Positions 9,197 through 45,060 of a stretch of 64,000 bases of DNA are shown here, piece by piece. How positions within the stretch are numbered: the stretch's first letter is position 1; each line of letters starts with the position of its first letter. The notes under the pieces were generated by a model that saw nothing but the letters and a program-made list of their open reading frames with translations, searched no databases and was not told the DNA's origin. Origin of the DNA: an uncultured Psychrosphaera sp. (lineage in GTDB: Bacteria; Pseudomonadota; Gammaproteobacteria; Enterobacterales; Alteromonadaceae); NCBI RefSeq assembly GCF_947500655.1, contig NZ_CANMSK010000008.1, forward strand, positions 19,139 through 83,138, given 5' to 3'. The translations under genes and the position numbers were made by a program.

Positions 9197-10216
9197 TTAA
9201 GCCAATAATCTTCTACAGATGGATAAGTTTGGTCGCCGTTTTAGTTGTTTATGCTCTACAAAGTTTTGTAGAACATGCTCATTGCCAACCGCACCATGGA
9301 ATACAGTGGTGAATTGTTTGGTCATCACTAACCAGTTATCTGGCTCTATGTTTAATCTTCTTAGTAGAGTTGGTAAATTGTTATCTATATGTCCTGCTTT
9401 CTCTTCTCTTACACAACGTCCTGTTACTTCGACTAATTCTATGTATTCTTTTAATTCAAATGGAATGACATCAAGCATGTCTTTTTTGAGATTTCCTACA
9501 AATGGTTTTAGTGACTTTGGTTGTGTTTGATAAAGTGCATGATGAATACGCTGTTTTATGCTGGTGTATTCTGATGTTTCTGGGGTTTTGGCTATATTGG
9601 CTCTTACTGGGTTTAAATCTACATATGCCATACAAGCGAGTAAAGCAGAGTCATCTAACAAGGCTTGGCATTTGAATCGGCCTTCCCAGAAACGTCCAGT
9701 GCAGCTATCTTCTTTATTCGCCTGTCTGGCAATACCTTCATTTAATACACGCATAAACCAACTTATATCCATTAAACGTTTTCTGTAAATGACGGTTATT
9801 TCCTCTATGGCTAGTAGCTCTGATCCAGTTAGAGGCTTGGATTCATTTAAGAGTTTACTGTTTAAGTCAGGTGAACCATTAATTTTAGATAGGTATTTTT
9901 GTGTCAGTAACGTGCCTTTAAACAACCTATGCCAACGAGTTAGAACCTCGGTTGTATCCCAGCTAAGCGCTTGTTGTTCATTTATATGTAAAACAAGGTG
10001 GGTATGATTACTCATGACGGCATAAGCACACACTTCAATCGCAAAGACTTGTGGTAACTGCTCTATCTTATCTTCTACCCATTGCCTTCTGTGCTCATAA
10101 GATTGATGGGTTTGTTTGTCTTCTCCGCATAGGAATGCCCTACGAACACATCTTGAAATACAATGATAGTAAGGCGTATCCGCTAAGCTAATTTGAAATT
10201 CTCTTGGTCTAGGCAT
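9197..10216 (-). CDS. IS200/IS605-type Y1 (HUH) transposase-like protein, long form, solitary
   Basis: N-terminal Y1_Tnp-like core with the HUH motif (AYAVMSNHTHLVLH) and a downstream Tyr-containing region (ACMAYVDLNPVRANI). The ATG at 10216 (MPRPREF...) is preferred over the GTG at 10225. No terminal repeats or subterminal hairpins were identified. Confidence 0.7.
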   Translation of the reverse strand: MPRPREFQISLADTPYYHCISRCVRRAFLCGEDKQTHQSYEHRRQWVEDKIEQLPQVFAIEVCAYAVMSNHTHLVLHINEQQALSWDTTEVLTRWHRLFKGTLLTQKYLSKINGSPDLNSKLLNESKPLTGSELLAIEEITVIYRKRLMDISWFMRVLNEGIARQANKEDSCTGRFWEGRFKCQALLDDSALLACMAYVDLNPVRANIAKTPETSEYTSIKQRIHHALYQTQPKSLKPFVGNLKKDMLDVIPFELKEYIELVEVTGRCVREEKAGHIDNNLPTLLRRLNIEPDNWLVMTKQFTTVFHGAVGNEHVLQNFVEHKQLKRRPNLSICRRLLA

Positions 10217-10327
10217 AAAAAACACTCAATGTACCAATATGGGTACAAATGAGTTTAGTTCACATTAAAATGGATGGCACTTTTATTTAAGTCAATTTAT
10301 AACTAACCGTTAGGTTCGGTTCGCCTT

Positions 10328-10755: not shown

Positions 10756-12195
10756 CTATTCATGCAAAAACATAAACTTCAACACAAACAACGCGGTTAA
10801 CGCCCACACACCTTTTGACACTTGGTTAGATTTACCTGTTCCAACTTTAAGTACGGTATAAGTAATAAAACCAAACGCGATACCGTTAGATATTGAAAAG
10901 GTAAATGCCATCATTACTGTAGTGCATACTGCGGGGGCGTATTCTGTTAAGTCATCCCAATTTAAGCTTTTTAAAGAGCTCATCATTAACATGGCAACAT
11001 AAATAAGTGCACCGTCTACCGCAAATCCCGGTAACATTTTAGCAAGTGGTAGAAGGAATACGCCTGCGGCAAATAACAAACCGATAGTCACAGCAGTTAA
11101 ACCTGTACGACCACCAACAGAAACACCAGCGGCTGATTCCACGTAAGACGTTACTGGAGGACAACCAAATGCAGTACCAACTACAGATGATATAGAATCT
11201 GCTTTTAGTGACTTACCTAGGCCTTGAATTTTACCATTTTCATCTTGTAAGTTAGCTTTTTCGGCAACGCCCATTAAGGTACCAGCGGTGTCGAATATAT
11301 TAACAAATAGGAAAGTAACAATAACTGGAATTAAGGCTACTTCAAATGCACCTGCAATATCAGCTTTCCATAAAATTGGCTCAAGAGCTGAAAATTCAGG
11401 AACCGCTAAGATACCGTTATAACTCACAAATCCTGTGGCTGGCGCAAATGCTTTAGCCGCTTCTGCAACAACAAAAAAGTCAGTCGGTAAAACCCAAGTC
11501 ATAATAAACGCAATTAAGGTAGTAACCCCAATACCAATAAGCACACCACCAAACACTTTTCGGTAACTTAGAATAGCGATAAGTAAAAAACTTAGAAAAC
11601 CAAGAGCCGGAGCTTCAGGACCAAATACACCAAAACCAAAGTGGGTAAGATCTGCGATAGAAACTATATTGTCTGGGTTCGCAACAACAATACCGGTAAA
11701 GCGTAAACCAATAAAACCAAGAAAGAGGCCAACACCTGCAGTCATTGCTAAACGTAAACTCATGGGAATACTGTCAAGCATCCACTCTCTTAAACGAGTC
11801 ACACTCATAAGAACAAATAACACCCCCGATAAGAAAACAGCACCCAATGCAATTTCCCAGCTATAACCCATAGCGCCAACCACTGAGAATGTGAAAAATG
11901 CGTTTAAGCCCATTCCAGGAGCAAGACCCACAGGCCAATTTGCGTACAATCCCATGATAAGAGTTGCGATAGCTGCGCCAATACAAGTGGCTAAAAACAA
12001 TCCATCAAATGGCATGCCTGAATTTGACATAATTGTTGGATTTAAAAACATGATGTAAGACATAGTAACAAAGGTGGTAAAGCCAGCCATGATTTCGGTT
12101 TTCACCGTAGTTTTATGTGCTGCAAGCTTAAACCAGCGTTCTAAAAAACCTACGCTTTTGGGTTCATTATCGTAAGTTTGCTCAACTTGTTTCAT
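10756..12195 (-). CDS. NCS2/AzgA-family purine permease (adenine/hypoxanthine/guanine type)
   Basis: 479 aa and polytopic. The N-terminus (FLERWFKLAAHKTTVKTEIMAGFTTFVTMSYIMFLNP) is typical of AzgA/PurP/GhxP-type permeases. Confidence 0.85.
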   Translation of the reverse strand: MKQVEQTYDNEPKSVGFLERWFKLAAHKTTVKTEIMAGFTTFVTMSYIMFLNPTIMSNSGMPFDGLFLATCIGAAIATLIMGLYANWPVGLAPGMGLNAFFTFSVVGAMGYSWEIALGAVFLSGVLFVLMSVTRLREWMLDSIPMSLRLAMTAGVGLFLGFIGLRFTGIVVANPDNIVSIADLTHFGFGVFGPEAPALGFLSFLLIAILSYRKVFGGVLIGIGVTTLIAFIMTWVLPTDFFVVAEAAKAFAPATGFVSYNGILAVPEFSALEPILWKADIAGAFEVALIPVIVTFLFVNIFDTAGTLMGVAEKANLQDENGKIQGLGKSLKADSISSVVGTAFGCPPVTSYVESAAGVSVGGRTGLTAVTIGLLFAAGVFLLPLAKMLPGFAVDGALIYVAMLMMSSLKSLNWDDLTEYAPAVCTTVMMAFTFSISNGIAFGFITYTVLKVGTGKSNQVSKGVWALTALFVLKFMFLHE

Positions 12196-12280: not shown

Positions 12281-12296
12281 TTGACACTTATGTCAA
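12281..12296. promoter_or_regulatory. Candidate operator, TGACAC-type palindrome (TTGACACTTATGTCAA)
   Basis: Lies in the divergent promoter region, 86 nt upstream of the permease start (12195) and ~210 nt upstream of the deaminase-like gene. It is one of four related sites (12281, 12370, 15158, 39120). Confidence 0.55.
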
Positions 12297-12369
12297 TATT
12301 TATCACTAAGTATACAGGTGAATATTATTGCTTTATTGCTACTGGTGAAGTTAAATCATCTATAAAAAC

Positions 12370-12383
12370 TGACACTTGTGATA
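12370..12383. promoter_or_regulatory. Weaker second TGACAC-type site (TGACACTTGTGATA)
   Basis: The left half is perfect and the right half matches 4/6. It is ~125 nt upstream of the ATG at 12505. Confidence 0.3.
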
Positions 12384-12504
12384 ACTTTCTAGCCATCATG
12401 CGTTAGTAGTAAATAAAATAATTAGTTATAAGTACTATATAAGCATAAGCACTAATAAATTGCGTAAATTTAAAGTACTGCTTTATACAATAAAAAGGAT
12501 AAAC

Positions 12505-13968
12505 ATGTTTTCATCATTAAGATCTTTCACTAGCTTGGTACTATTGGTTAGTCCATTAATATTTTGCCAGAGCTTTGTGGTAACTGCTGCAGCAAAAATA
12601 GAAAATAGCCAAACTAATTGGTTTAATGACTTTAAACAGCAAGCATCTGATAAGCAACTTTATAAATTTTTATACAACATGCCTAAAGGTGCCGATTTAC
12701 ATAACCATGCAAGTGGTAGCAACTTTCCACGTTGGTGGTATGAGCTTGCAATCAATAGCGAGCTTAATGGCGGTTACCGTTATTACACAAAAACTAAATT
12801 AACCTTATGCCAAGGTTATGGCCAAAATGCCTTTGGGTATATCTCGCCGACGCTGACTTTTGTAACCATAGCTGAAAATATTTATAAAAAGCTCAGTGCT
12901 TGTGAACAAAAAAATTACACACAACTTTCATCCTTAACACCAAAAGAGATAAAGGCGTGGGAACAAAGCATTTGGTTGGATAAAGACTACGAAGGTCGTG
13001 ACGAGTTTTTTCAAACTCATTGGCAACGGTTAAATGAGCTGGCTAATAATCCGTATATTGCAGCAGAAATGCTTGTGCGAAATATGAAAGCGTTTGGCAA
13101 TGAAGGACTAATTTACCTTGAGAGTCAATTTAATGTGACTGGGTTTATGACACCAAACGGTAAGCCTCAAACTCAAACTGCAGCTTTAAACATTCTTAAG
13201 GAACGTTTGGCTCAAGACGACGCCAAACAAACTGGTGTGGAAGTAAAACTGGTTTATCAACTATTGCGCTTTACTCCTAACGCAGAACAGCAACTAACCG
13301 ACATTTATAAATTTGTTGATCAAAATCGTGACCTATATGTGGGCATTAATATGGTTGGTAGAGAAGATAACGGTAAAGGCCATCCACTACGTTTTTTGTC
13401 TACCTTGCGTGAACTAAGACAACAATATCCTGCCATTGCTCTTACTATTCATGCGGGTGAAGTGGATGAACCAAACTTTCATATTAGAGATACGTTATTA
13501 CTAGGCGCTGATAGAATTGGTCACGGCGTTAATTTATTAGGAGACCCACAAACAACATTATTGATGCGTCATAATCATTATTTAATAGAAGTTAATCTGA
13601 TCAGTAATTTGTTGTTGGAATATGTTGATGACTTTAAAAAGCACCCTTTTCCAGAATTTTTACGCACAGGCATTCCTGTGGCTTTATCAACTGACGACCG
13701 CGGCATGTTCCATTCAAACTTAACCGATGAATTCTTTATCGCAGTTAAGACCTTTAATTTGTCTTGGCAGGAAGTGGTAACACTAAGTAAAAACTCTCTC
13801 GAATATAGTTTTTTAGATCACCCAACAAAAAAAGCAATGCTTGTTAAGTTTGATGAAAACATTAATACATTCACGCAAAACTTTGAACAAAATGGCTCAA
13901 GCAGTTTGCAAAAACCAGCGGTGTTGAATCAATTTATTCGACGTTATTATCCACAATTAACTGATTAG
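12505..13968 (+). CDS. Secreted adenosine/adenine-deaminase-family protein (long, ADGF/CECR1-like form)
   Basis: ATG at 12505 follows AAAAGGA; the longest ORF starts at a TTG at 12460. It has a signal peptide (MFSSLRSFTSLVLLVSPLIFCQSFVVTAAA). Metal/catalytic motifs of the adenosine deaminase superfamily are present (DLHNHASGS, IHAGE, GHGVNL, ALSTDDRGMF). Confidence 0.75.
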   Translation: MFSSLRSFTSLVLLVSPLIFCQSFVVTAAAKIENSQTNWFNDFKQQASDKQLYKFLYNMPKGADLHNHASGSNFPRWWYELAINSELNGGYRYYTKTKLTLCQGYGQNAFGYISPTLTFVTIAENIYKKLSACEQKNYTQLSSLTPKEIKAWEQSIWLDKDYEGRDEFFQTHWQRLNELANNPYIAAEMLVRNMKAFGNEGLIYLESQFNVTGFMTPNGKPQTQTAALNILKERLAQDDAKQTGVEVKLVYQLLRFTPNAEQQLTDIYKFVDQNRDLYVGINMVGREDNGKGHPLRFLSTLRELRQQYPAIALTIHAGEVDEPNFHIRDTLLLGADRIGHGVNLLGDPQTTLLMRHNHYLIEVNLISNLLLEYVDDFKKHPFPEFLRTGIPVALSTDDRGMFHSNLTDEFFIAVKTFNLSWQEVVTLSKNSLEYSFLDHPTKKAMLVKFDENINTFTQNFEQNGSSSLQKPAVLNQFIRRYYPQLTD

Positions 13969-13978
13969 GCTATTTTTT

Positions 13979-14968
13979 ATGAAGAATTTATTTATGCACA
14001 CTTTTTTAATTAATAATTTAAAAAAACTCACCATAATATTCATCAGCTTGATCTTAATAAGCTGTACACAGGCTGACAAATCTTATACGCAAGTTGTTGC
14101 TAATGCCAAGTTAACTGAGGTAGCAAATACCATTAACTTGGAAGACAACAACGCTGCTTTAAAAACAATTTCTGATGTAGATTATGCGCAATGGAGTGAA
14201 GAAGAAAAACAGTCGGCTCTATTATTAACAGCATTAGGCTGTATCGATATTAGTACTAATGATAGCAAGCAATCCACTTCAGTAGATGACTGCAAGGCTT
14301 TACAGCCTTTATCAATTGATTATCCAAATGTGCCATCATCGTTAACATTAGTATTCAATGAATTGCTAGAGCAGAATATTATTCAAGGCTACAATATCAA
14401 GGAGCAAGAACTGGTTACGTCAAAAGAGACTGGTAACAATATTTTCCTTTACGGTCATAGTTCTTTACCGCACGCCAAGCAGTTGATCAGTTTATTGAAC
14501 ATAAATAACATTGATTTTACTTGGCAACTTATTCCTAAAAGTTCGGCGTTTAATATTCGTGATGATTGGCAAGATACTAAGATTGATGAAAAAGAATCCA
14601 GAGTACGAATAGCCAAAGAATACGACATTCGATTAATTTTTGCAGATCAAGCTGAACAGCTTAGCTTTATGCCTTTAATTAATAAATACGCCAAAAAAGA
14701 CACTGACGATGAAGCTGGATTAATCATTAATGCTTGGTGGCAGCCTTTTTATCGCAGTTTTTCTGCGCTAGAGTCCTTTATGCCTGTTAAGAGAATTTCT
14801 TTACAAGCCGATGGTTTTATTGCCTCGACTCTTGTACTTCAACCTGATCTTACAAAAACTCTTGATTTGATTAAAGCTAGTCTGGCAAACATAGAGGTAA
14901 CAATTTCAACTGAAGATGTATGGGTAAACCCAGCATTTTACCGTTATCTTAATGGTGGTTATAAATAG
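13979..14968 (+). CDS. Orphan lipoprotein, no recognisable domain
   Basis: Lipobox LILISC, 10 nt after the stop of the deaminase-like gene (operonic). I recognise no family. Confidence 0.7.
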   Translation: MKNLFMHTFLINNLKKLTIIFISLILISCTQADKSYTQVVANAKLTEVANTINLEDNNAALKTISDVDYAQWSEEEKQSALLLTALGCIDISTNDSKQSTSVDDCKALQPLSIDYPNVPSSLTLVFNELLEQNIIQGYNIKEQELVTSKETGNNIFLYGHSSLPHAKQLISLLNINNIDFTWQLIPKSSAFNIRDDWQDTKIDEKESRVRIAKEYDIRLIFADQAEQLSFMPLINKYAKKDTDDEAGLIINAWWQPFYRSFSALESFMPVKRISLQADGFIASTLVLQPDLTKTLDLIKASLANIEVTISTEDVWVNPAFYRYLNGGYK

Positions 14969-15157
14969 ACTGTAAACCACTATAAAACTGATTTTTATAA
15001 ATCCGCGTTTATAGATTAACTATTCGGCACTAGATTAGTGCAACTGCTCTATTGTAGTGCTGAATTGTTTATTTTTAAAGCCTTTCAACTAAACTCTCAC
15101 ATATTCCAATCTAAAAATTAACCAATATAAACATAAACTTAACTACAAAAATAAGAC

Positions 15158-15173
15158 TTGACACTTGAGTCAA
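15158..15173. promoter_or_regulatory. Candidate operator, TGACAC-type palindrome (TTGACACTTGAGTCAA)
   Basis: Lies 106 nt upstream of the TonB-dependent receptor start at 15279. Confidence 0.5.
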
Positions 15174-15278
15174 CTAAATGGCATTAATTCTGCTTTAATT
15201 ACCCTAATAAAATAATAACTAACTGAAGCTAACCATCGAGTTAGCACTTTCAATAAAACTTTAGGGGAATATTCTACT

Positions 15279-17768
15279 ATGTCATTACGTACATATAAAA
15301 CCAGTTACCTTGCTTCTGCTATTGCGTTAAGCCTTAGTATGTCAGCGAATACTTTCGCGGCAGATGAAGCAGAAGAGCCTACTGATAAGGAAATTGAAAA
15401 AATTGAAGTACGAGGCTCTTTAGGCAGCCTTCCTGGACAAGCCGTTGAATCTGTTTTTGGTTTTGGTAAATCAATCTTAGAAACGCCTCGTTCTGCTTCA
15501 ACTATCAGTCAAGAGCAGATGGAACGTTTTAGCGTAAGTGATATAGATGAATTAGTTGCATTTGCTCCTGGTACATTTACCCAATCATTTTTTGGTGTTG
15601 CGGGCTCGCTAGATGTTCGTGGTACGCCAGGCGAAACTTATTTCCGTGGTGTTAAACGTTTAGATAACCCAGGAAACTATCCAACACCAATTGGTGCGTC
15701 AAGCCGTGTTGATATTGTACGTGGCCCAGCCTCACCTATTTATGGTCCGGCAAAAATAGGTGGTTACTTAAACTTTAATCCTAAATCTGCACGCGCTAGC
15801 GGTGGCCAATATTTAGATGACAACACTGGCGGCTTTTCTTATACAACAGGAAGTTGGAATAAAAATGTCATAACCGCAGAAATCGGTGGACCAGCTGAAA
15901 TTGCAGGAAAAAAAGCAGGTTTCTATATATACGGTGAAGTTGAGAGATCTGATAGCTTTTATGAAAATACAAAAACAGATCAAACTGTATTACAAGCGGC
16001 ATTTAACATTGACGTAACAGATAATCTTCGTTTTGAATTTGGTGGTATGTACCATGATTACGATGGTAATCAAGTTGCAGGTTGGAATCGCTTAACTCAA
16101 GACTTAGTTGATAACGGTACTTATATTACAGGTACAGCTCAGCCACTAGATACTGATGGTGACGGCTATATTTCTCATCAAGAATACAACGCAGCAGGTG
16201 TAGATCAATATATTTGGCAAGTGCCAATGAATGGAACTACTCCAGACCTTATTCCAGATATTATGGCGTTAGAAAATGTTGGAACAACAACATTAGATGC
16301 TAGCCAAGTATTAGTCGCAGAAGATGATGAACTGACGAATACCGTTCAAACATTGTACTTTGATGCTATGTATTACACCGATAACGGTTGGGAAGTTAAA
16401 AACCAATTATTTTATGAAGGATACGAAAATAACAATGAAAATGCCTACGGGTTTTCTCAATATCATGATAGTTGGGTAATAGAAGATAAAATTGTTTTCT
16501 CTACTGAGTTAGAACTTGACGACATGATTGCTCAAGTACAAATTTCGCCATCATTACGTTATGTTGATTTTGAACATGGTGAAGATTGGAAGAATGAATA
16601 TTTTGATCGCCGCGATTTAACAATGGAATCAAGTTCACTTGACCGCCGTTTATTAGCAACCGTAATTGATGATGATTATACAGAATGGTATGAAGGTAAT
16701 TATTTAGATCTTGGTTTTGCTGCTATGGTCGATCTTACTTGGGAATGGGGTCTAAATGTTGTCCTTGGTGCACGTTACGACTCATTTGATATGGAAAGTA
16801 GTACAGACCCAGATAAATTATTATTAGGTAACTACGGTTCTGGTTTTGTTATTATGTCTGACGATGGAAAATACATATTAAATGACTTTGGTGCAGACTC
16901 AGCAAACTATACCGCTGCGGATATAACAGCCCCTGTAGAAGCTGAAGATACGGTTGATGGTGTTTCTTGGAATACCAGTATTTCGTATAAGTTTGATATG
17001 GGTTTAATTCCATATATCACAGCAGCTGAACAATCGACTATTATTGTTGGCCAAGGTGCAGAAATTAAAACAGGTAGTATCTACTCTGGTGGCGTTTTCG
17101 ATAAATCTACATTAATGGAGTTTGGTGTTAAAGGTACATTCCTAGAAGACTCTCTTTACTTTGCTCTTTCAAACTATACTCAAGAACGTACCGATACCAA
17201 AGCACAATCGACTACGCTTAATAATGTAACTGAAACTAAAGGTACTGAATTTGAATTACGTTGGGTCGTGACTGATGACTTAGTTGTATCAGCAGGGTAC
17301 ACCGATGTTAAAGTTCTGAACTTAACAGCAATAGAAGATGGCGGTCAATATGGCTTCTTCGGTGCTGAAGATATGCCATTAGTTGAACCTTCACTTGCTT
17401 ATGGCGGTGTAGTTGGCGGCACAAATCCTACAAGTAATAACCCTGAGGGTCTGAAAGCAGGTATTCCACAAAACATTTACTCTTTCACTGCTAGTTATGA
17501 TTTCCAAAATGGATTTTCAGCTAATGCCAGTGTTATTGATGTAGATTCTACCTATTCTGGTTATTCACAGGCTGTGTTACTTCCATCTTATACTTTAGTA
17601 AATGCCGGTGTGTTATATCAAGCAGATACATGGTCAGCGAGTCTTAACGTTAAAAACTTAACTGATGAGACTTATTACCGTGCAAACTTCCCGGACTTAT
17701 TTGGTAGTGCGGTGGTTTTACCTGAACTTCCACGTAGCGTACAAGCTAAGTTCACTTATAACTTCTAA
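15279..17768 (+). CDS. TonB-dependent outer-membrane receptor
   Basis: Signal peptide, a plug (ETPRSASTISQEQMERF..., DIVRGPASPIYGPAKIGGYLNF) and an 829-aa barrel ending in FTYNF. Confidence 0.9.
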   Translation: MSLRTYKTSYLASAIALSLSMSANTFAADEAEEPTDKEIEKIEVRGSLGSLPGQAVESVFGFGKSILETPRSASTISQEQMERFSVSDIDELVAFAPGTFTQSFFGVAGSLDVRGTPGETYFRGVKRLDNPGNYPTPIGASSRVDIVRGPASPIYGPAKIGGYLNFNPKSARASGGQYLDDNTGGFSYTTGSWNKNVITAEIGGPAEIAGKKAGFYIYGEVERSDSFYENTKTDQTVLQAAFNIDVTDNLRFEFGGMYHDYDGNQVAGWNRLTQDLVDNGTYITGTAQPLDTDGDGYISHQEYNAAGVDQYIWQVPMNGTTPDLIPDIMALENVGTTTLDASQVLVAEDDELTNTVQTLYFDAMYYTDNGWEVKNQLFYEGYENNNENAYGFSQYHDSWVIEDKIVFSTELELDDMIAQVQISPSLRYVDFEHGEDWKNEYFDRRDLTMESSSLDRRLLATVIDDDYTEWYEGNYLDLGFAAMVDLTWEWGLNVVLGARYDSFDMESSTDPDKLLLGNYGSGFVIMSDDGKYILNDFGADSANYTAADITAPVEAEDTVDGVSWNTSISYKFDMGLIPYITAAEQSTIIVGQGAEIKTGSIYSGGVFDKSTLMEFGVKGTFLEDSLYFALSNYTQERTDTKAQSTTLNNVTETKGTEFELRWVVTDDLVVSAGYTDVKVLNLTAIEDGGQYGFFGAEDMPLVEPSLAYGGVVGGTNPTSNNPEGLKAGIPQNIYSFTASYDFQNGFSANASVIDVDSTYSGYSQAVLLPSYTLVNAGVLYQADTWSASLNVKNLTDETYYRANFPDLFGSAVVLPELPRSVQAKFTYNF

Positions 17769-17813
17769 GTTAGAAGTTATGACTTTAAAGAAATAAAGTA
17801 AGAACTAGAATAA

Positions 17814-17847
17814 AGCGAAACATATCAAAAATATGTTTCGCTTTTTT
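17814..17847 (+). terminator. Rho-independent terminator after the receptor gene
   Basis: agcgaaacatat-caaaa-atatgtttcgct followed by ttttt. Confidence 0.8.
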
Positions 17848-17899
17848 AGCTTTTAATTAACAGTTAGGTAAATCCACAACAAACATATAGAGGAAAATC

Positions 17900-19000
17900 A
17901 TGAAGTATTTCTATCGAGCATTTTTATTTTGTAGCTTAGCCGCCTTGCTAAGTGCCTGCGAGAAAAGTAACACTGAAACAACGTCTAATACACCTATAGA
18001 AGTAAAAGTAGTTGTTGTTAATATGTTTGAAATTGGTGAAGACGACGGCGACAAAGCCGGTGAATTTCAAATGTGGAAACAAGGTCAGCAATTAAATACA
18101 AAATATCCATTCCCTCAGTCTTTTCATGACTTATATTACAATGAAGACACTGGTGTGTTAGGCATGGTCACAGGAATGGGAACGGCTCGTGCAGCCTCTG
18201 CCATTATGGCCTTAGGACTTGATCCTCGCTTTGATCTAACCAAAGCATATTGGTTAGTTGCTGGGATTGCTGGTGTTGATCCACAAGATGCATCAATAGG
18301 CTCTGCAGTGTGGGCAACTTGGTTAGTTGATGGCGATTTAGCACATCAAATTGATGCTCGTGAAATCCCAAAAGACTGGAAGTCAGGTTATTTCCCTCTT
18401 TTCTCACATGCACCATATGTAGGTAAAACAGCGAAAGATACTAAACATCAATCGGCTGGCGAAGTATATAAAATCAATGGCGAGTTGGCAGAGTGGGCTT
18501 ATCAATTAACCAAAGACACTCCATTAACAGATTACCCTGCCATGCAAAAACTTAGAGCTAAATACGTTAATTATCCAAAAGCTCAATTACCACCGTTTGT
18601 GTTAAAAGGTGATCATATGGCAGCCGCTACTTTTTGGCATGGCAAGCTTATGAATGACTGGGCCAATTCATGGTCTAAATTCTGGAGTGATGGTGAAGCA
18701 AACTTTGTCACTTCTGGTATGGAAGACACAGGAACGTATCAATCATTAACTTACTTAGATAAAGCTGGCAAAGTAGATAAAACGCGTTTTATGGTGCTTA
18801 GAACGGCCAGTAATTACAGCATGCAACCTGGTAGCTTAACTGCAGCAGAGAATTTGAAACTGGAAAGCGGTGAAAATGGTTACGCTGGAATGCAATCGTC
18901 TTTAGAGTCTGCTTATTCTGTAGGTAGTATCGTAGTTAATGACATAGTGGCTAATTGGGAAAAGTATAAAGACGCTTATCCTTACCAAGTGAAGCCTTGA
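17900..19000 (+). CDS. NUP (purine nucleoside permease) family lipoprotein
   Basis: Lipobox LLSAC. The soluble-looking 366-aa body resembles the Pfam NUP family (VVVVNMFEIGEDDGDKAGEFQMW..., GMVTGMGTARAA, AGIAGVDP). Confidence 0.7.
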   Translation: MKYFYRAFLFCSLAALLSACEKSNTETTSNTPIEVKVVVVNMFEIGEDDGDKAGEFQMWKQGQQLNTKYPFPQSFHDLYYNEDTGVLGMVTGMGTARAASAIMALGLDPRFDLTKAYWLVAGIAGVDPQDASIGSAVWATWLVDGDLAHQIDAREIPKDWKSGYFPLFSHAPYVGKTAKDTKHQSAGEVYKINGELAEWAYQLTKDTPLTDYPAMQKLRAKYVNYPKAQLPPFVLKGDHMAAATFWHGKLMNDWANSWSKFWSDGEANFVTSGMEDTGTYQSLTYLDKAGKVDKTRFMVLRTASNYSMQPGSLTAAENLKLESGENGYAGMQSSLESAYSVGSIVVNDIVANWEKYKDAYPYQVKP

Positions 19001-19094: not shown

Positions 19095-20396
19095 ATGGAA
19101 ATTTTATACAAAGTTGAAGATAAGCCACCTGTTGGTACGTCTATTCTATTAGCAGCACAACATTTATTGGCTGCGCTAAGTGCAATAATCACAGTACCAT
19201 TAGTAATAGGCGGCGTTTTAAAACTACCAGTAGAAGACATTATTGTATTGGTTAACGCAGCTATGCTGATATCTGGTGTGGTTACTATTATTCAATGCCG
19301 AGGGATAGGTTCTATTGGTATAAGGTTACCTTGTGTTATGGGCACTAGCTTCACCTTTGTTGGAGTCTCTATTGCAATTGGTTTTGAATACGGCGTATCT
19401 GGCATTTTAGGTTCAGCTTTGGTCGCATCACTTATTATGATCATCGGTAGTTTTTTTATGCCGACCATCAGAAAGTTTTTCCCTCCAGTTGTTACTGGAA
19501 CTGTGGTTACGCTCATTGGGCTATCATTAATTCCAGTTGCCGTTGATTGGTTTGCTGGCGGTCAAGTAGGCCAAGAGGGTTATGCATCCCTACCTAATTT
19601 AGCAATAGGTTTACTTGTATTAGTTACGGTTGTTGGCTTATCTATTTATGGTAAAGGCTTATTATCCGCAGCGTCGGTTGTTATTGGTATGTTAGTGGGT
19701 TATCTCATTTGCTTAGCTTTGGGATTAATTGACTTTAAACCTGTGCAAGACTCACCGCTAATTGCTTTACCTAGCCCTTTTCACTTTGGTTTAAGTTTTC
19801 CAATTAGTGGCATCATAGGTATGTCTATTGCTTACTTGGTGACAATTGTTGAATCTACTGGTGATTTTCTTGCGTTATCCAATGTCACCAAAACAAAATT
19901 AACCGGTAAAAAATTATCCAGTGGCATTTTATGTGATGGATTAGGTTCAGCCTTAGCCTCGGTATTTTCCACTACACCATTTTCATCATTCTCACAAAAC
20001 GTCGGAATTGTTGGCATGACTGGTGTAGCAAGTCGATATGTTGTTGCTATTACTGGCGCTATGTTAGTCCTTGCTGGCTTATTTCCGATTTTAGGTGCTA
20101 TGGTTGTTTCTATTCCCCTTCCTGTTTTAGGTGGCGCTGGCTTAGTTATGTTTGCCATGATCATCACAGCCGGAGTGAATATTTTATCAACGACACAACA
20201 TACAAAAAGAAATGGAATGATCATCGCTGTTAGTATTGCCTCTGGTATGGCCGTTACTTTTCGTCCTGAACTTCTGAGCCAATTACCTGAATCTATAAAA
20301 ATTATTTTAGCCTCTGGCATTACCACAGGTTCAATTATCGCTTTAATATTAAATATTATTCTTCCTAACCCTGATAAAGTTGTGGATACTGAATAG
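19095..20396 (+). CDS. NCS2-family xanthine/uric acid permease
   Basis: 433 aa and polytopic. It has the NAT/NCS2 signature region (FSSFSQNVGIVGMTGVASRYV) and an N-terminus typical of xanthine/urate permeases. Confidence 0.85.
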   Translation: MEILYKVEDKPPVGTSILLAAQHLLAALSAIITVPLVIGGVLKLPVEDIIVLVNAAMLISGVVTIIQCRGIGSIGIRLPCVMGTSFTFVGVSIAIGFEYGVSGILGSALVASLIMIIGSFFMPTIRKFFPPVVTGTVVTLIGLSLIPVAVDWFAGGQVGQEGYASLPNLAIGLLVLVTVVGLSIYGKGLLSAASVVIGMLVGYLICLALGLIDFKPVQDSPLIALPSPFHFGLSFPISGIIGMSIAYLVTIVESTGDFLALSNVTKTKLTGKKLSSGILCDGLGSALASVFSTTPFSSFSQNVGIVGMTGVASRYVVAITGAMLVLAGLFPILGAMVVSIPLPVLGGAGLVMFAMIITAGVNILSTTQHTKRNGMIIAVSIASGMAVTFRPELLSQLPESIKIILASGITTGSIIALILNIILPNPDKVVDTE

Positions 20397-20398
20397 CA

Positions 20399-21322
20399 AT
20401 GACAATTAACACTGTGATCAAGGAGTTAACAATTACTAGCACACCTACTCCTCCACTAAAGAATGCATGGCTTGCCAGCTTAGCTTTGGAATTTAGTTTA
20501 ACGCCAAATGGCAGCCAACTTACTCGAACTAAACGCAATGGGCCATTAAGTGTACAAAAAGCGTTTTATCCAGAAGGGCGCGACTGTGCTCATATTTATT
20601 TATTGCATCCACCTGCGGGGATTGTTTCGGGTGATGAATTGCGTATTGATATACAAGTAAATGAACAAGCACACAGTTTAATTACGACTCCCGGTGCCAA
20701 TCGCTTTTATCGCGCCCGTGAAGACTTAACCATTGGCGATTCAAAGCAAGTTCAGCATTGTGGAGTTAATCTTAAACAAGCAGCAAAATGCGAGAACTTC
20801 CCACTGGAAACTATTGTCTACGAAGGTGCCGATGGCTTTAATACTGTAGATGTACATTTAACTAATGAAAGTAGTTATTTAGGCTGGGATATTACTTGTT
20901 TGGGTTTACCCAGCTCAGGCCAACTTTTTAAACATGGCAGCTATACTCAATTGAATCGAGTTTATTGTGAAGGTACTTTAATGTATCACGACAGGATTGC
21001 CATTAAGCCTAACAATCATATACATCAACATGTTGCAGGTTTAAACAATCACAGCGTGTTTGCTACTTTTATGGCTTATGCCGCAAAAGGACAAGTCACT
21101 GATGCTGACAACAAAATGTTAGTTGAGCAACTGCGTGATTGTATGATTGCCGCAGACTCAAAACACAAAGTCAGTATTAGCCAAATACGCCAGTTATTAA
21201 TAATACGTTATTTAGGTGACAGCGCTGAAGAGTGCAAAGCCTTATTTATTATTTTATGGCAAAAAATACGGCCACTTTATTTAAATAAAGCAGCCAATGT
21301 ACCGCGCGTTTGGCATACCTAA
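20399..21322 (+). CDS. ureD: Urease accessory protein UreD
   Basis: Starts 2 nt after the permease stop. It is the first gene of a ureDABCEFG arrangement and has UreD-like motifs (YLLHPPAGIVSGDEL). Confidence 0.85.
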   Translation: MTINTVIKELTITSTPTPPLKNAWLASLALEFSLTPNGSQLTRTKRNGPLSVQKAFYPEGRDCAHIYLLHPPAGIVSGDELRIDIQVNEQAHSLITTPGANRFYRAREDLTIGDSKQVQHCGVNLKQAAKCENFPLETIVYEGADGFNTVDVHLTNESSYLGWDITCLGLPSSGQLFKHGSYTQLNRVYCEGTLMYHDRIAIKPNNHIHQHVAGLNNHSVFATFMAYAAKGQVTDADNKMLVEQLRDCMIAADSKHKVSISQIRQLLIIRYLGDSAEECKALFIILWQKIRPLYLNKAANVPRVWHT

Positions 21323-21404
21323 ACAGCACTTATAAAGATGAATTAGAGACATCTGTTTTAGATATCTATATTTAAAAAAGAACAACAACACAGTCGAGAA
21401 TATT

Positions 21405-21707
21405 ATGGATTTATTGCCAAGAGAAAAAGACAAATTAATGATCTTTACCGCTGCATTATTAGCAGAACGACGTTTAAAACGAGGGGTAAAGCTTAATTAC
21501 CCAGAAGCGATGGCTTATATTTCAATGGAAATAATTGAAGGTGCACGCGATGGTAAAACCGTTGCTGAAATGATGGATTATGGTCGTACCTTATTAACAC
21601 GTGAACAAGTGATGGATGGCGTTTCTGAGCTTATTCCAGAAGTGCAAGTTGAAGCTACGTTCCCTGACGGCACTAAGCTTGTCACGGTTCATAACCCGAT
21701 TATTTAA
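21405..21707 (+). CDS. ureA: Urease gamma subunit
   Basis: 100 aa, [35 protein letters not shown]... is the canonical UreA sequence. Confidence 0.95.
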
Positions 21708-21744
21708 TCGACTTAGCCAACCGTTAACCACAAGAGAATACATT

Positions 21745-22086
21745 ATGATCCCAGGTGAAATAAAAACAGACAGTGGCGACCGCGAGTTAAATGTAGGTCG
21801 TGAACCGATAAAAATTACCGTTGCCAACTCTGGTGACCGACCAATTCAAGTCGGTTCGCATTATCATTTTTACGAAGTGAACCGCGCGTTGATTTTTGAG
21901 CGTGAAATCACTAAAGGTTATCGTTTAGATATTACCTCAAGTACTGCGGTTCGTTTTGAGCCAGGTCAAGAAAGAGAAGTTACTCTTATCCCTTATCGCG
22001 GTAAGCGTCGAGTATTCGGCTTTCGTGGTGATATTCAAGGTGCTCTTCGTGATGATAGTGATGGTAAAAAAGAGGGAGATAAATAG
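21745..22086 (+). CDS. ureB: Urease beta subunit
   Basis: The canonical start MIPGEI at ATG 21745 (the ORF track extends it to 21616, overlapping ureA). Contains the motif [17 protein letters not shown]. Confidence 0.93.
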
Positions 22087-22088
22087 TC

Positions 22089-23792: not shown

Positions 23793-23813
23793 TTAAAAAC
23801 TTTAGGAAATTAC

Positions 23814-24296
23814 ATGTTAAAAGCATATGAACGTTTTGATCATATTCACAGTGAAATTACAGACTCAATCACACTCGATCAAGACACTCGTAAAAAAGCG
23901 CGCATTAAAGGTAAAACTAACGGCGGCTTAGATATTGGTATTTTTATGGAGCGTGGCCATCCATTATTAGTGGGTGAAGTTTTAAAAACCGAATGTGGTT
24001 TATTTATTGAAATAAAAGGCCAAGAAGAACCCGTATCTACCGCGATTGCAACTGACTGGTTAACGTTTTGTAAAGTGTGTTATCACCTAGGCAATCGTCA
24101 TACGTCTTTACAAATTGGTGAGTTATGGGTACGTTTTAAACCTGATCATGTTTTGGAAGAATTAGCCGAAAAATACGGCTTAACTATCAATAAGACTCCC
24201 GCTATATTTGAACCTGAAAATGGCGCTTATGGTAAAGGCGGGCACTCCCATAGTCATGGTGAAAGCGAGCATTCGCACAGCCATTCCCATGCTTAG
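23814..24296 (+). CDS. ureE: Urease accessory protein UreE with His-rich tail
   Basis: UreE-like body plus the C-terminal [19 protein letters not shown]. Confidence 0.9.
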
Positions 24297-25023: not shown

Positions 25024-25081
25024 CTATAAAGAAAGATATAAAAAATAAAATAAAAAGAAATATATTCAAGAGAGAACATAA

Positions 25082-26053: not shown

Positions 26054-26680
26054 TTATTTGATACCACAGCCTTTAAGAATGATCTGCGTTAATGAAGCAA
26101 CCACATCTTCAAAGTCTTGCTCATCCATTTTATCTTTACTTAATCCTGCCACAACTTGAACATTAAAATCAGCATAATGCTGAGTTGAACTCCAAATTAA
26201 AAACAGTAAATGATGTGGATTAACGGTATCAATTAAGCTTTGTTCAATCCAAGATTCAATAACTACAACTTTACTGGCTAACCAAGATTTAAAGTCGCTG
26301 TTTAGGTACTCACTTAATACTGGAGCGCCATGAATTATTTCGCTGGCAAATATTCTTGAGCCATCAGGATCATCTTTAGCGTGCATCACTTTTGCACGGA
26401 TATAATCGCTCAAGGCTTGCTTTGGATCATTGTCTGCATTTAGAGTGTCGTAATCCGTATTCCACACGTTAATAATGCTACTTAGTAGTTGCTGATATAA
26501 GTCTGTTTTATCTTTAAAGTAATAATGGATATTAGCTCTAGGGATCTTTGCACGTTCGGCAATTCGCTTAATGGATGCACCTTTAAAACCATGGGTAACA
26601 AATTCCTTTTTTGCAGCATCAAAAATAATAGCTTTATTCTTCTGCCTGATACGCCCTTCAGACTCGTTTACTTTTGTCAC
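26054..26680 (-). CDS. TetR-family regulator, RutR/YcdC subfamily (paralog 1, purine cluster)
   Basis: HTH (FKGASIKRIAERAKIPRANIHYYF) plus a RutR-type C-terminal signature (HHLLFLIWSSTQHYADF; compare E. coli RutR HLIFMIWASTQHYADF). Confidence 0.85.
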   Translation of the reverse strand: MTKVNESEGRIRQKNKAIIFDAAKKEFVTHGFKGASIKRIAERAKIPRANIHYYFKDKTDLYQQLLSSIINVWNTDYDTLNADNDPKQALSDYIRAKVMHAKDDPDGSRIFASEIIHGAPVLSEYLNSDFKSWLASKVVVIESWIEQSLIDTVNPHHLLFLIWSSTQHYADFNVQVVAGLSKDKMDEQDFEDVVASLTQIILKGCGIK

Positions 26681-39119: not shown

Positions 39120-39137
39120 GCTGACACAAGTGTCAGC
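39120..39137. promoter_or_regulatory. Candidate operator, TGACAC-type 18-bp palindrome (GCTGACACAAGTGTCAGC)
   Basis: 8-bp perfect arms with a 2-nt spacer, 75 nt upstream of the xdhA start, at the head of the 11-gene minus-strand operon. Confidence 0.6.
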
Positions 39138-42802: not shown

Positions 42803-42818
42803 TTGACCAATTGGTCAA
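42803..42818. promoter_or_regulatory. Perfect RutR-type box TTGACCAATTGGTCAA
   Basis: 16-bp perfect palindrome identical to the E. coli RutR consensus TTGACCAnnTGGTCAA. It lies 124 nt upstream of the EEP nuclease gene start (42942). Confidence 0.65.
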
Positions 42819-45008: not shown

Positions 45009-45030
45009 CGTTAGTTATACACACATAAAC

Positions 45031-45060
45031 AAAAGGGTTAACAAATGTTAACCCTTTTTT
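45031..45060. terminator. Bidirectional terminator between deoD and deoB
   Basis: aaaa-gggttaac-aaat-gttaaccc-tttttt. Confidence 0.8.

What the first reader, a model, noticed from the sequence alone, without database searches (positions are those of the whole stretch)
12505..19000. Envelope-level purine nucleoside capture module: secreted ADA-like deaminase + orphan lipoprotein + TonB-dependent receptor + NUP-family lipoprotein
All four products carry export signals, a Sec signal peptide or a lipobox. They are flanked by two inner-membrane NCS2 base permeases, and they carry the TGACAC-type sites. Classical bacterial purine catabolism is cytoplasmic. Here the arrangement suggests a different route. 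The substrate would cross the outer membrane through a TonB-energised receptor. It would be deaminated in the periplasm by a long ADGF-like adenosine deaminase. It would possibly be cleaved by the NUP-family protein. This family is annotated as a permease, but the protein here is a soluble-looking lipoprotein, and as I recall the family belongs to the nucleoside phosphorylase fold superfamily. The free bases would then enter through the NCS2 carriers. A TonB-dependent receptor dedicated to purines or nucleosides would be unusual.
Basis: inference. Interest (0 to 1): 0.7.

Follow-up and report, generated by a model that had tools for sequence, protein, structure and literature searches.

The report
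Envelope purine-nucleoside scavenging gene module
A marine bacterium keeps an outer-membrane TonB-dependent receptor, a secreted adenosine deaminase, a lipoprotein wrongly named "nucleoside permease" that has a nucleoside-cleaving enzyme fold, and an unknown exported protein inside its purine-degradation locus. Together they look like a previously undescribed way of harvesting purine nucleosides in the cell envelope.

Summary
Window 12505-19000 encodes four exported proteins:
- an ADGF/ADA2-like adenosine deaminase with all catalytic motifs;
- an orphan protein with a confident new-looking fold;
- a TonB-dependent receptor (TBDR);
- a PF06516 "NUP" lipoprotein.

NCS2 base carriers flank the block. 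It sits in a ~30-kb purine-to-urea-to-ammonia catabolic supercluster.

NUP is not a permease. Its AlphaFold model matches MTAN, futalosine hydrolase and PNP enzymes (Foldseek prob 1.0). Motifs typical of these enzymes (MFE, ME, R..SN) are conserved even in 30%-identical paralogs.

In 80 species-level genomes carrying the closest NUP:
- 60 have the TBDR ortholog directly upstream;
- 35 have the secreted deaminase;
- 53 have an NCS2 carrier;
- 42 have purine-catabolic genes.

A palindrome, TGACAnnnnTGTCA, occurs only in the promoter regions of azgA/ADA, the TBDR and xdhA, next to a RutR-like regulator.

Most likely mechanism (inferred): TonB-energised import of purine nucleosides, periplasmic deamination, N-ribosidic cleavage by NUP, then base uptake by NCS2 carriers. 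Substrates, protein localisation and the orphan's role are untested.

I found no description of this module in the literature. I rate it a new variant of TBDR-based nutrient-utilisation loci, with moderately high interest.

The parts
10756..12195 (-). NCS2 (AzgA-like) inner-membrane purine base carrier, divergent from the deaminase gene
   Evidence: PF00860, E 9e-47. Orthologs at 85-93% identity hold the same position in Psychrosphaera, Colwellia and Pseudoalteromonas.
12281..12296 (.). Perfect palindrome TTGACActtaTGTCAA in the azgA/ADA divergent promoter region. A degenerate second copy lies at 12369-12384.
   Evidence: Conserved at the same place in Psychrosphaera saromensis and Colwellia.
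12505..13968 (+). Secreted ADGF/ADA2-like adenosine (or AMP) deaminase
   Evidence: PF00962 and TIGR01431 over the full length. PDB best hits are ADGF-family enzymes, and the motifs HxH, HAGE, GHG and TDD are all present. A signal peptide is present in about 40 orthologs.
13979..14968 (+). Exported orphan protein (a lipoprotein here), 10 bp after the deaminase gene
   Evidence: No family or PDB match. AF2 pLDDT 85 but no Foldseek hit (best E 0.05). Only 52 close clusters and 192 clusters in the profile search. Always directly downstream of the secreted deaminase when inside the module.
15158..15173 (.). Palindrome TTGACActtgAGTCAA, 105 bp upstream of the receptor start codon
   Evidence: Conserved upstream of the receptor in Psychrosphaera, Colwellia and Pseudocolwellia.
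15279..17768 (+). TonB-dependent outer-membrane receptor
   Evidence: Plug PF07715. Orthologs also score PF00593 barrel. Signal peptide, TonB-box-like IEKIEV and terminal Phe. Directly upstream of NUP in 60 of 80 genomes.
17812..17844 (+). 14-15 bp hairpin followed by a T-run between the receptor and NUP (terminator or attenuator-like)
17900..19000 (+). NUP-family lipoprotein with an MTAN/PNP (NP-I) fold; predicted purine N-ribosidase
   Evidence: PF06516, E 1.6e-113. AF2 pLDDT 85. Foldseek top hits are MTAN and futalosine hydrolase, prob 1.0, E 1.5e-10. Motifs are conserved in 30-46% paralogs. Lipobox or signal peptide in all orthologs.
19095..20396 (+). NCS2 xanthine permease (PbuX type); its stop lies 2 bp before ureD
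   Evidence: TIGR03173, 473.7 bits against a 414 cutoff. Gene spacing.
26054..26680 (-). RutR-like TetR regulator, candidate binder of the palindromes
   Evidence: TIGR03613 RutR, E 5e-54, full length, below cutoff. A homolog sits next to xdhA in many related loci.
39121..39136 (.). Palindrome CTGACAcaagTGTCAG upstream of xdhA
   Evidence: Similar sites lie upstream of xdhA/pbuX in Cellvibrionaceae loci L071 and L072.

Best explanation
The block is the cell-envelope front end of the purine-nitrogen catabolic pathway encoded in the same locus.

Proposed route (inferred):
1. The TonB-dependent receptor actively imports purine nucleosides across the outer membrane. Nucleotides are possible substrates instead.
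2. The Sec-exported ADGF-like deaminase converts adenosine to inosine in the periplasm.
3. The NUP lipoprotein, an MTAN/PNP-fold enzyme tethered to a membrane, cleaves the N-ribosidic bond of inosine, guanosine or xanthosine and releases the free base. I favour hydrolysis over phosphorolysis.
4. The two NCS2 carriers take hypoxanthine, guanine or xanthine into the cytoplasm.
5. There, guanine deaminase, XdhABC, PuuD, allantoicase, urease and the rest of the pathway release the nitrogen.

A RutR-like TetR regulator probably co-represses the deaminase/azgA, receptor and xdh promoters through the TGACAnnnnTGTCA palindrome.

The orphan protein is an accessory extracytoplasmic component coupled to the deaminase. 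I guess it binds or processes a nucleoside-like ligand.

Shown here: gene content, export signals, folds, synteny and shared palindromes. Inferred: all substrates, activities, compartments and the regulator-operator pairing.
For: Gene and domain identities.

Deaminase: catalytic motifs are intact and the closest solved relatives are ADGF enzymes.

NUP fold and motifs:
- AF2 model pLDDT 85. It matches MTAN/futalosine hydrolase/UP with prob 1.0 and TM about 0.7 normalised to the target.
- NUP motifs NMFE after strand 1, (E)ME at the start of the helix at 274, and LRTxSN on strand 297-306 keep the order of MTAN's AMEEE, EME and RAISD. They are conserved in 30%-identical paralogs, which read EMEAAAIAQ.
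- hhalign places invariant N305 at catalytic D197 of MTAN (weak). In trimeric PNPs an Asn at this position goes with 6-oxopurine specificity (established knowledge). That would explain why a deaminase accompanies NUP.

Synteny across 80 genomes: TBDR directly upstream in 60, secreted ADA in 35, NCS2 in 53, purine-catabolic genes in 42. ADA is adjacent to NUP without a TBDR in Microbulbifer and Cellvibrionaceae.

Export signals are conserved in all orthologs.

Regulation: the palindrome occurs only in the three purine promoter regions within 2.9 kb of intergenic DNA and is conserved in other genera. No Fur box is present.

Context: a complete purine-to-NH3 pathway.

Literature: Candida NUP lets an ade- yeast grow on adenosine but gives no toyocamycin sensitivity (PMC9431476). 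My reading is that this fits an extracellular nucleosidase better than a permease.
Against: - There is no experimental datum for any step.
- The receptor gives only generic TBDR hits (siderophore-type subfamily below cutoff), so nothing in its sequence points to a nucleoside.
- Nucleosides are small enough to pass through porins or Tsx-type channels.
- The residue mapping to MTAN rests on one weak hhalign hit (E 0.08) plus motif order. hhalign against the window's own DeoD found nothing.
- Hydrolase versus phosphorylase is unresolved.
- The deaminase scores far below the ADGF curated cutoff, and its best PDB relative is an AMP-preferring enzyme.
- A strong hairpin separates the receptor and NUP, so they need not be co-transcribed.
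- The 80 loci are the best-scoring NUP relatives and are phylogenetically clustered (mostly Alteromonadales and Cellvibrionales), so the counts are not independent.
Confidence: 0.6

Rival explanations
1. The substrates are nucleotides rather than nucleosides. The receptor imports AMP/GMP-type nucleotides or short oligonucleotides, which are charged and pass porins poorly. The ADGF-like enzyme acts as an AMP deaminase. NUP acts like AMP nucleosidase and releases base plus ribose-5-phosphate.
For: The best solved relatives of the deaminase are Helix pomatia AMP deaminase and its chimera, and ADGF members can prefer AMP (PMC12273558). AMP nucleosidase is a member of the same NP-I fold (established knowledge). 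The window also holds secreted EEP nucleases, an alkaline phosphatase and a second large TBDR with RutR boxes, so it encodes nucleic-acid scavenging capacity.
Against: Of the HPAMPD phosphate-binding positions, only the two after the HxH motif lie in an aligned stretch. There the 'invariant' Asp is Ala and Thr is Ser. The other three were not examined. NUP's top structural matches are nucleoside hydrolases, not Amn. The locus has no phosphate or ribose-phosphate handling genes.
Confidence: 0.15
2. NUP is a non-catalytic substrate-binding lipoprotein partner of the receptor, functionally like TbpB or SusD. It captures purine nucleosides or bases at the membrane and hands them to the receptor or to an inner-membrane carrier.
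For: NUP is adjacent to the TBDR in 60 of 80 genomes. It is lipidated and has a long flexible Ser/Thr/Pro-rich tether in many orthologs. The family was named from a transport phenotype (PMC9431476).
Against: The enzyme-type motifs of the NP-I fold are invariant across 30-86% identity. NUP sits next to the secreted deaminase without any receptor in Microbulbifer and Cellvibrionaceae. No surface-lipoprotein export factor is present in the locus.
Confidence: 0.12
3. The receptor is functionally unrelated to purines, for example a metal or siderophore importer serving urease (Ni) or xanthine dehydrogenase (Mo/Fe), and only travels with the locus.
For: The only NCBIfam or PDB similarities are to siderophore-type receptors. 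The receptor lies upstream of a urease operon in this window.
Against: Adjacency to NUP holds in many genomes that lack urease nearby. The window has no Fur box. The promoter carries the same palindrome as xdhA and ADA. The similarity to siderophore receptors is confined to the plug and falls below all cutoffs.
Confidence: 0.08

Closest known systems
TonB-dependent nutrient-utilisation loci of Proteobacteria (Xanthomonas 'CUT' loci; Caulobacter MalA/NagA-type systems)
   Same: An outer-membrane TBDR is clustered with periplasmic degradative enzymes, inner-membrane carriers and a dedicated repressor. The logic is import, periplasmic trimming, then carrier uptake.
   Different: The known systems handle carbohydrates. 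Here the enzymes are a deaminase and an N-ribosidase-fold protein, and the carriers are NCS2 nucleobase transporters. The comparison rests on my knowledge of those systems, not on a test run here.
Bacteroidales ddbABCDEF DNA-utilisation locus and rus ribose/nucleoside-scavenging loci (PMC12478041; bioRxiv 10.1101/574913)
   Same: A TonB-dependent transporter is coupled to secreted enzymes that turn nucleic-acid-derived material into deaminated nucleobases.
   Different: Those are SusC/D-type systems with secreted nucleases (and, from memory, IUNH-type nucleoside hydrolases in rus) in Bacteroidota. This module has no SusD and no nuclease. It uses an ADGF-like deaminase and a NUP/NP-I fold lipoprotein, and it feeds an aerobic xanthine dehydrogenase/urease pathway.
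MTAN / futalosine hydrolase / PNP (NP-I fold enzymes), including periplasmic Aeromonas MtaN (PDB 5b7p)
   Same: The predicted NUP fold matches with Foldseek prob 1.0. The ME ribose-binding motif, the R..S-x motif and an acidic residue after strand 1 are retained. A periplasmic MTAN precedent appears among the hits.
   Different: Only 12-16% identity. NUP carries about 130 extra residues. An invariant Asn replaces the catalytic Asp. There is no sequence-level PDB hit. Activity is untested.
Animal ADGF/ADA2 secreted adenosine deaminases
   Same: A secreted protein with an N-terminal extension before the TIM-barrel, intact Zn and catalytic motifs, and a full-length alignment to TIGR01431.
   Different: The protein is bacterial and probably periplasmic. 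It scores 129 bits against a 315-bit cutoff and has a shorter N-terminal extension. Its role would be nutritional rather than signalling.
E. coli RutR and its TTGACCAnnTGGTCAA box
   Same: The locus regulator aligns over the full length of RutR. The palindrome TTGACAnnnnTGTCAA shares the TTGAC/GTCAA arms. Two perfect RutR boxes occur elsewhere in the window.
   Different: The spacing and inner bases differ, the target genes are purine rather than pyrimidine genes, and binding is untested.

Membership tests
PF06516 NUP ('purine nucleoside permease') | Pfam HMM score above the gathering threshold over the full domain | tested here: met
   379.5 bits against a cutoff of 27; residues 34-359 match profile positions 1-311 of 313.
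PF06516 NUP ('purine nucleoside permease') | Being a membrane permease, as the name implies | tested here: not met
   No transmembrane segments beyond the lipoprotein signal. The AF2 model is a soluble alpha/beta NP-I fold.
NP-I fold nucleoside phosphorylases/nucleosidases (PNP, UP, MTAP, MTAN) | The PNP/UDP alpha/beta fold | tested here: met
   Foldseek found 517 PDB hits at E<=1e-3. The top hits are MTAN and futalosine hydrolase, prob 1.0. Pfam places NUP in the PUP clan (PMC9815663).
NP-I fold nucleoside phosphorylases/nucleosidases (PNP, UP, MTAP, MTAN) | Conserved ribose-binding Met-Glu and the base-contacting Asp/Asn on the penultimate strand | tested here: inconclusive
   M274-E275 and S304-N305 are invariant and stand in the right secondary-structure order. 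The residue-level alignment is supported only by a weak hhalign hit. No coordinates were available for superposition.
NP-I fold nucleoside phosphorylases/nucleosidases (PNP, UP, MTAP, MTAN) | Catalytic cleavage of an N-ribosidic bond | not testable with these tools
   Needs an enzyme assay.
ADGF/ADA2 subfamily (TIGR01431) | Score above the curated cutoff | tested here: not met
   129.1 bits against 315, although the alignment covers the full length.
ADGF/ADA2 subfamily (TIGR01431) | ADA catalytic constellation (HxH, HAGE, GHG, DD) plus a secretion signal and an N-terminal extension | tested here: met
   The motifs DLHNH, IHAGE, RIGHG and STDD are present. A signal peptide is present in all orthologs. 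About 50 mature residues precede the HxH motif.
TonB-dependent receptors | Plug domain, TonB box, 22-strand barrel and C-terminal aromatic residue | tested here: met
   PF07715, 49 bits against a cutoff of 23.9. The barrel model PF00593 did not reach E<=0.01 for the window protein but is on record for the 67-68% identical orthologs. IEKIEVRGS and the terminal F are visible in the sequence.
Siderophore-type TBDR (TIGR01783) | Score above the curated cutoff | tested here: not met
   107 bits against 223.5. No Fur box.
NCS2 nucleobase carriers | PF00860 and TIGR03173 above their cutoffs | tested here: met
   Both flanking genes match PF00860. 19095-20396 scores 473.7 against 414 for pbuX.
SusC/SusD-type PUL | A SusD-like lipoprotein adjacent to a SusC-like TBDT | tested here: not met
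   Pfam finds no SusD-family domain in the block. NUP and the orphan have unrelated folds.

The most novel reading that the evidence does not exclude
Gammaproteobacteria of several families (Alteromonadaceae, Colwelliaceae, Pseudoalteromonadaceae, Cellvibrionaceae, and some Lysobacteraceae and Steroidobacteraceae) have a dedicated TonB-energised purine-nucleoside uptake system with periplasmic deamination and N-ribosidic cleavage.

If so, the large 'NUP permease' family (more than 7600 90%-identity clusters, including the fungal founder) is in fact a family of extracytoplasmic 6-oxopurine nucleosidases. The orphan protein would define a new extracytoplasmic ligand-handling domain that is also fused to ECF-transporter S components.
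Probability: 0.4. Interest if true: 0.72.

Novelty: new variant of a known kind. Interest (0 to 1): 0.6.

Why it matters
- Purines and nucleosides are major labile nitrogen currencies between phytoplankton and heterotrophic bacteria. A TonB-dependent, high-affinity nucleoside route would name the outer-membrane step for abundant copiotrophs such as Alteromonas, Paraglaciecola and Colwellia.
- It would give a function to one of their many orphan TBDRs.
- It would correct a 25-year-old family annotation (permease to enzyme) that propagates through thousands of genomes, fungi included.
- It would move the first steps of bacterial purine catabolism, textbook-cytoplasmic, into the periplasm.
- It offers easily testable targets: one receptor, two enzymes, one regulator-operator pair.

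Tried and rejected
- Sequence search of NUP and of the orphan against PDB found nothing.
- hhalign of the NUP alignment against the window's own DeoD gave no meaningful hit. The catalytic-residue mapping is therefore labelled inference.
- Foldseek of the confident orphan model gave no significant PDB hit. Weak ferredoxin-like, CutA and ACT-like matches (TM <0.25 on the query) were rejected as noise.
- Genomic contexts of the distant orphan homologs fused to ECF S components were uninformative. The Moritella and Thalassorhabdomicrobium homologs lie near a CNT transporter or a Bmp-ABC/PNP cluster. That is suggestive only.
- The bare TGACAC hexamer is not enriched. The loose 16-mer with 2 mismatches is not above chance window-wide. 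Only its confinement to promoter regions and its conservation across genera carry weight.
- A Fur-box search found nothing, which argues against iron regulation.
- Ten literature searches found no description of a TBDR-NUP-ADA module or of NUP enzymology.
- I could not decide AMP versus adenosine specificity from the HPAMPD determinants.
- I considered a surface-exposed, SusD-like role for NUP and ranked it low.

Full report
**What is there**

ORF listing and translation show four co-directional genes exactly at the reported coordinates:
- 12505-13968, deaminase;
- 13979-14968, orphan;
- 15279-17768, TonB-dependent receptor (TBDR);
- 17900-19000, NUP.

The ORF tool starts the first gene at TTG 12460. 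ATG 12505 has a Shine-Dalgarno AAGGA, and orthologs start at the matching MFSSL.... Domain searches give:
- A_deaminase (E 1.5e-34), with a full-length alignment to TIGR01431 'adenosine deaminase-related growth factor' at 129 bits, below the 315-bit cutoff;
- nothing at all for the orphan;
- a Plug domain for the receptor;
- PF06516 NUP (E 1.6e-113).

The flanking genes 10756-12195(-) and 19095-20396(+) are NCS2 carriers. The second is a xanthine permease above the TIGR03173 cutoff.

**Export signals**

No predictor was available, so I read the N-termini directly:
- deaminase: MFSSLRSFTSLVLLVSPLIFCQSFVVTAAA-K, Sec type;
- orphan: ...IFISLILISC-T, lipobox;
- receptor: ...SLSMSANTFA-AD, followed by a TonB-box-like IEKIEVRGS and ending in ...TYNF;
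- NUP: ...LAALLSAC-E, lipobox.

I extracted the orthologs from 85 fetched loci. Essentially every NUP ortholog has a lipobox or, in a few Alteromonas, a plain signal peptide. All of the roughly 40 deaminase orthologs and roughly 70 receptor orthologs have signal peptides. The orphan is a lipoprotein only in the Psychrosphaera clade. Other orthologs have ordinary signal peptides. So it is exported, but not always lipidated.

**Context**

The block lies in a purine-nitrogen supercluster:
- pbuX, whose stop is 2 bp from ureD;
- ureDABCEFG (20399-25693);
- a RutR-like TetR regulator (26054-26680);
- malate synthase G;
- a PuuD-like urate hydroxylase;
- guanine deaminase (TIGR02967, 618 bits);
- ureidoglycolate lyase;
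- HIU hydrolase (32159-32500);
- OHCU decarboxylase;
- allantoicase;
- xdhCBA (34247 to about 39045).

This is a near-complete route from purine bases to ammonia and malate. I did not identify an allantoinase (allantoin to allantoate) in the window.

**The deaminase**

PDB sequence search gives the ADGF family as best relatives: Aplysia AGSA/Helix chimera 2.8e-22, Helix pomatia AMP deaminase 6.9e-21, human ADA2/CECR1 6.9e-15. The metal and catalytic motifs are all present: DLHNH, IHAGE, RIGHG and STDD. The enzyme therefore looks competent. I could not decide whether it prefers adenosine or AMP. Two of the five HPAMPD phosphate-binding positions described in PMC12273558 follow the HxH motif, and there the window protein differs (Ala-Ser in place of Asp-Thr). 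I did not examine the other three.

**NUP is an enzyme-fold protein, not a permease**

No PDB sequence hit exists. An AlphaFold2 model built on 45 homologs is confident (pLDDT 85, pTM 0.84). Foldseek against the PDB returns 517 hits at E<=1e-3. MTAN and futalosine hydrolase lead the list, and uridine phosphorylase also appears among the listed hits. Probability is 1.0, best E 1.5e-10, and TM about 0.7 normalised on the shorter targets. A periplasmic Aeromonas MTAN is among the hits. It also agrees with Pfam's placement of NUP in the purine/uridine phosphorylase clan, as stated in PMC9815663.

The invariant residues of 45 orthologs follow the active-site landmarks of the fold, in the same secondary-structure order:
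- N-M-F-E right after strand 1, compared with MTAN A-M-E-E-E;
- G-M-E-D at the start of helix 274-288, compared with E-M-E. The 30%-identical paralogs read EMEAAAIAQ, almost the canonical PNP/MTAN string;
- L-R-T-A-S-N on strand 297-306, compared with MTAN R-A-I-S-D and PNP T-V-S-D.

hhalign gives only that last stretch, and weakly (E 0.08). It places invariant Asn305 on the catalytic Asp197. From established PNP enzymology, Asn at this position (human PNP Asn243) goes with 6-oxopurine specificity and Asp with adenine. If that mapping is right, NUP would prefer inosine, guanosine or xanthosine. That would explain why a periplasmic adenosine deaminase so often accompanies it. This step is inference. 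I had no coordinates to superpose.

I favour hydrolysis over phosphorolysis, roughly 60:40. The top matches are hydrolases. The loop after strand 1 is acidic (EIGEDDGDKAGE) rather than carrying the phosphate-binding Arg. No Arg occupies the PNP Arg87 position.

**An independent hint from the family founder**

In PMC9431476, Candida NUP expressed in an adenine-auxotrophic S. cerevisiae allows growth on adenosine. Unlike the true CNT transporter, it does not make the cells sensitive to the 7-deaza-adenosine analogues toyocamycin and tubercidin. My reading is that an extracellular nucleosidase releasing adenine would give exactly this pattern. 7-Deazapurine nucleosides resist cleavage that depends on N7 protonation, and they would not be carried in.

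**Synteny**

The orphan's homologs in Colwellia, Pseudoalteromonas and a metagenome contig show the same ADA-orphan-TBDR-NUP block beside xdhABC and NCS2 genes. A scan of one genome per species with the NUP alignment found 407 relatives, and the best 80 loci (57-86% identity) were fetched. I mapped the window's proteins on them by tblastn:

| Feature near NUP | Genomes (of 80) |
|---|---|
| Receptor ortholog directly upstream, same strand, gap under 600 bp | 60 |
| Receptor ortholog within 10 kb | 66 |
| Secreted deaminase | 35 |
| Secreted deaminase together with the adjacent receptor | 24 |
| Secreted deaminase next to NUP, no receptor (Microbulbifer, Cellvibrionaceae) | 8 |
| NCS2 carrier | 53 |
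| Purine-catabolic gene | 42 |
| xdh | 22 |
| Orphan | 7 |
| None of these | 5 |

A typical Alteromonas locus reads ADA - NCS2 - TBDR - NUP - (cytoplasmic ADA/ADE-like) - NCS2 - puuE - TetR - xdhABC. The genera span Psychrosphaera, Colwellia, Pseudocolwellia, Pseudoalteromonas, Paraglaciecola, Aliiglaciecola, Glaciecola, Alteromonas, Agaribacter, Cellvibrio and Microbulbifer, plus Lysobacteraceae and Steroidobacteraceae MAGs.

The widespread core is therefore TBDR+NUP+NCS2. The deaminase is a frequent add-on, and the orphan is a clade-specific add-on always glued to the deaminase. One caveat applies. The 80 loci are the top-scoring relatives and are phylogenetically clustered, so the counts overstate independence.

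**Regulation**

The bare TGACAC hexamer is not enriched (22 found, 26 expected). The palindrome TGACAnnnnTGTCA at one mismatch or fewer occurs four times in 64 kb. Three of those lie in promoter regions of purine genes:
- 12282, in the azgA/ADA divergent region (perfect);
- 15159, 105 bp before the receptor ATG;
- 39122, upstream of xdhA (perfect).

The 7.7-41.6 kb stretch holds 2.9 kb of intergenic DNA. Within it, sites with two mismatches or fewer occur only in those three regions. The site is conserved upstream of the receptor in P. saromensis, two Colwellia and two Pseudocolwellia. It is conserved upstream of ADA/azgA in two of them, and upstream of xdhA/pbuX in two Cellvibrionaceae.

The obvious candidate binder is the RutR-like TetR at 26054-26680. 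Homologs sit beside xdhA in many loci. The pairing is inferred. No Fur box is present. A 14-15 bp hairpin with a T-run separates the receptor and NUP, so NUP expression may depend on read-through or on its own promoter.

**The orphan**

Only 52 clusters appear among 5.8 billion proteins by word search. A profile search of 1.84 billion representatives finds 192 clusters. The AF2 model is confident (pLDDT 85) but has no significant PDB neighbour (best E 0.05). It has a variable helical N-terminal part and a conserved alpha/beta C-terminal half.

Residues invariant across the wide family are H160, H165, Q168, F221, W253 and P256. Near-invariant residues are K187, S189, W197, E214 and K239. Distant members are fused to other domains:
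- ECF-transporter S components, with or without HAMP, in Syntrophales, Deltaproteobacteria and Lentisphaeria MAGs;
- CWB2 cell-wall-binding repeats;
- a Cu_amine_oxidN1 domain.

It is therefore a generic extracytoplasmic domain associated with small-molecule uptake. Homologs at 35% identity lie next to a CNT nucleoside transporter in Moritella and near a Bmp-type ABC system plus PNP in Thalassorhabdomicrobium. My best guess is a nucleoside-related binding or processing accessory of the deaminase, with low confidence.

**Mechanism and rivals**

The best-supported reading (confidence 0.6 for the whole chain) runs as follows:
1. TonB-energised import of purine nucleosides.
2. Periplasmic deamination.
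3. NUP-catalysed base release.
4. NCS2 uptake.
5. Cytoplasmic catabolism to ammonia.

All of this would be co-regulated by a RutR-like repressor. That the block is functionally tied to purine scavenging is much more secure (about 0.9) than any single step. The rivals are:
- nucleotides rather than nucleosides as substrates (0.15);
- NUP as a non-catalytic capture lipoprotein (0.12);
- an unrelated metal or siderophore receptor (0.08).

**Comparison with known systems and novelty**

The architecture follows TBDR-based nutrient-utilisation loci (Xanthomonas CUT loci, Bacteroidota PULs). The nearest functional analogues are the Bacteroidales ddbABCDEF DNA-utilisation locus and the rus ribose/nucleoside loci (PMC12478041). 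The components here are different: no SusD, no nuclease, an ADGF-like deaminase and a NUP-fold lipoprotein.

Ten full-text searches found no description of this module or of NUP enzymology. Subscription-only literature is not covered. I rate it a new variant of a known kind and give it interest 0.6. It is not paradigm-changing. It is specific and widespread in ecologically important marine heterotrophs, it corrects a large family's annotation, and it is directly testable.

Noticed in passing
window 42803-42818 and 52472-52487; 56392-57033: There are two perfect E. coli-type RutR boxes (TTGACCAnnTGGTCAA). One lies upstream of a secreted EEP-family endonuclease (42942-43889). The other lies between deoA and a 1075-aa TBDR. 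A second RutR-like TetR gene sits at 56392-57033. This suggests a second regulon, for nucleic-acid or pyrimidine scavenging.
   Followed up: partly
window 52578-59602: A 1075-aa TonB-dependent receptor (52578-55805, minus strand) lies next to a RutR-like regulator, a secreted EEP nuclease/phosphatase (57040-58260) and a lipoprotein alkaline phosphatase (58298-59602). This looks like an extracellular DNA or nucleotide utilisation unit.
   Followed up: partly
window 44259-52001: A classical cytoplasmic nucleoside-catabolism cluster is present: deoD, deoB, udk, a CNT/NupC-type nucleoside transporter, deoC, upp and deoA. The organism therefore also has the conventional route for intact nucleosides.
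   Followed up: no
window 20-2395: This TonB-dependent receptor has long His/Glu-rich insertions (e.g. HEEEEEEHEEHEEE). Its best NCBIfam hit is zinc-piracy ZnuD (E 1e-101, below cutoff).
   Followed up: partly
P0069, P0100, P0110 and many others (Paraglaciecola; loci L010-L013 etc.): Many NUP orthologs carry a C-terminal Cupin_5 (PF06172/DUF985) domain while keeping the N-terminal lipobox. A domain of unknown function is thus fused to the putative nucleosidase in the envelope.
   Followed up: partly
P0242, P0254, P0260, P0298 (ECF S component fusions); P0216 (CWB2); P0209 (Cu_amine_oxidN1): Distant homologs of the orphan domain are fused to ECF-transporter substrate-specific components (some with HAMP), to cell-wall-binding repeats or to a Cu_amine_oxidN1 domain. 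The orphan therefore represents an unnamed extracytoplasmic domain family with invariant His160, His165, Gln168 and Trp253.
   Followed up: partly
loci L010-L014, L020-L022, L028, L032-L034 etc., about 1.5 kb upstream of the receptor: In Paraglaciecola, Colwellia and Pseudocolwellia, an NCS2 carrier plus an Amidohydro_1 protein only 23-28% identical to guanine deaminase sits between ADA/orphan and the receptor. Its substrate is unknown. I did not check whether it has a signal peptide.
   Followed up: no
locus L009 (Alteromonadaceae bacterium XY-R5), 1.4-9.9 kb: Three tandem paralogs of the receptor (60-65% identity to the window protein) precede NUP.
   Followed up: no
window 9197-10225: A REP-associated tyrosine transposase (RAYT)-like gene (weak Y1_Tnp and NF047646 hits) lies just outside the purine locus.
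   Followed up: no
window 19095-20399: The xanthine permease stop codon is 2 bp from the ureD start. Purine base uptake and urease are probably co-transcribed here and in P. saromensis (L006), but not in Colwellia (L008).
   Followed up: partly
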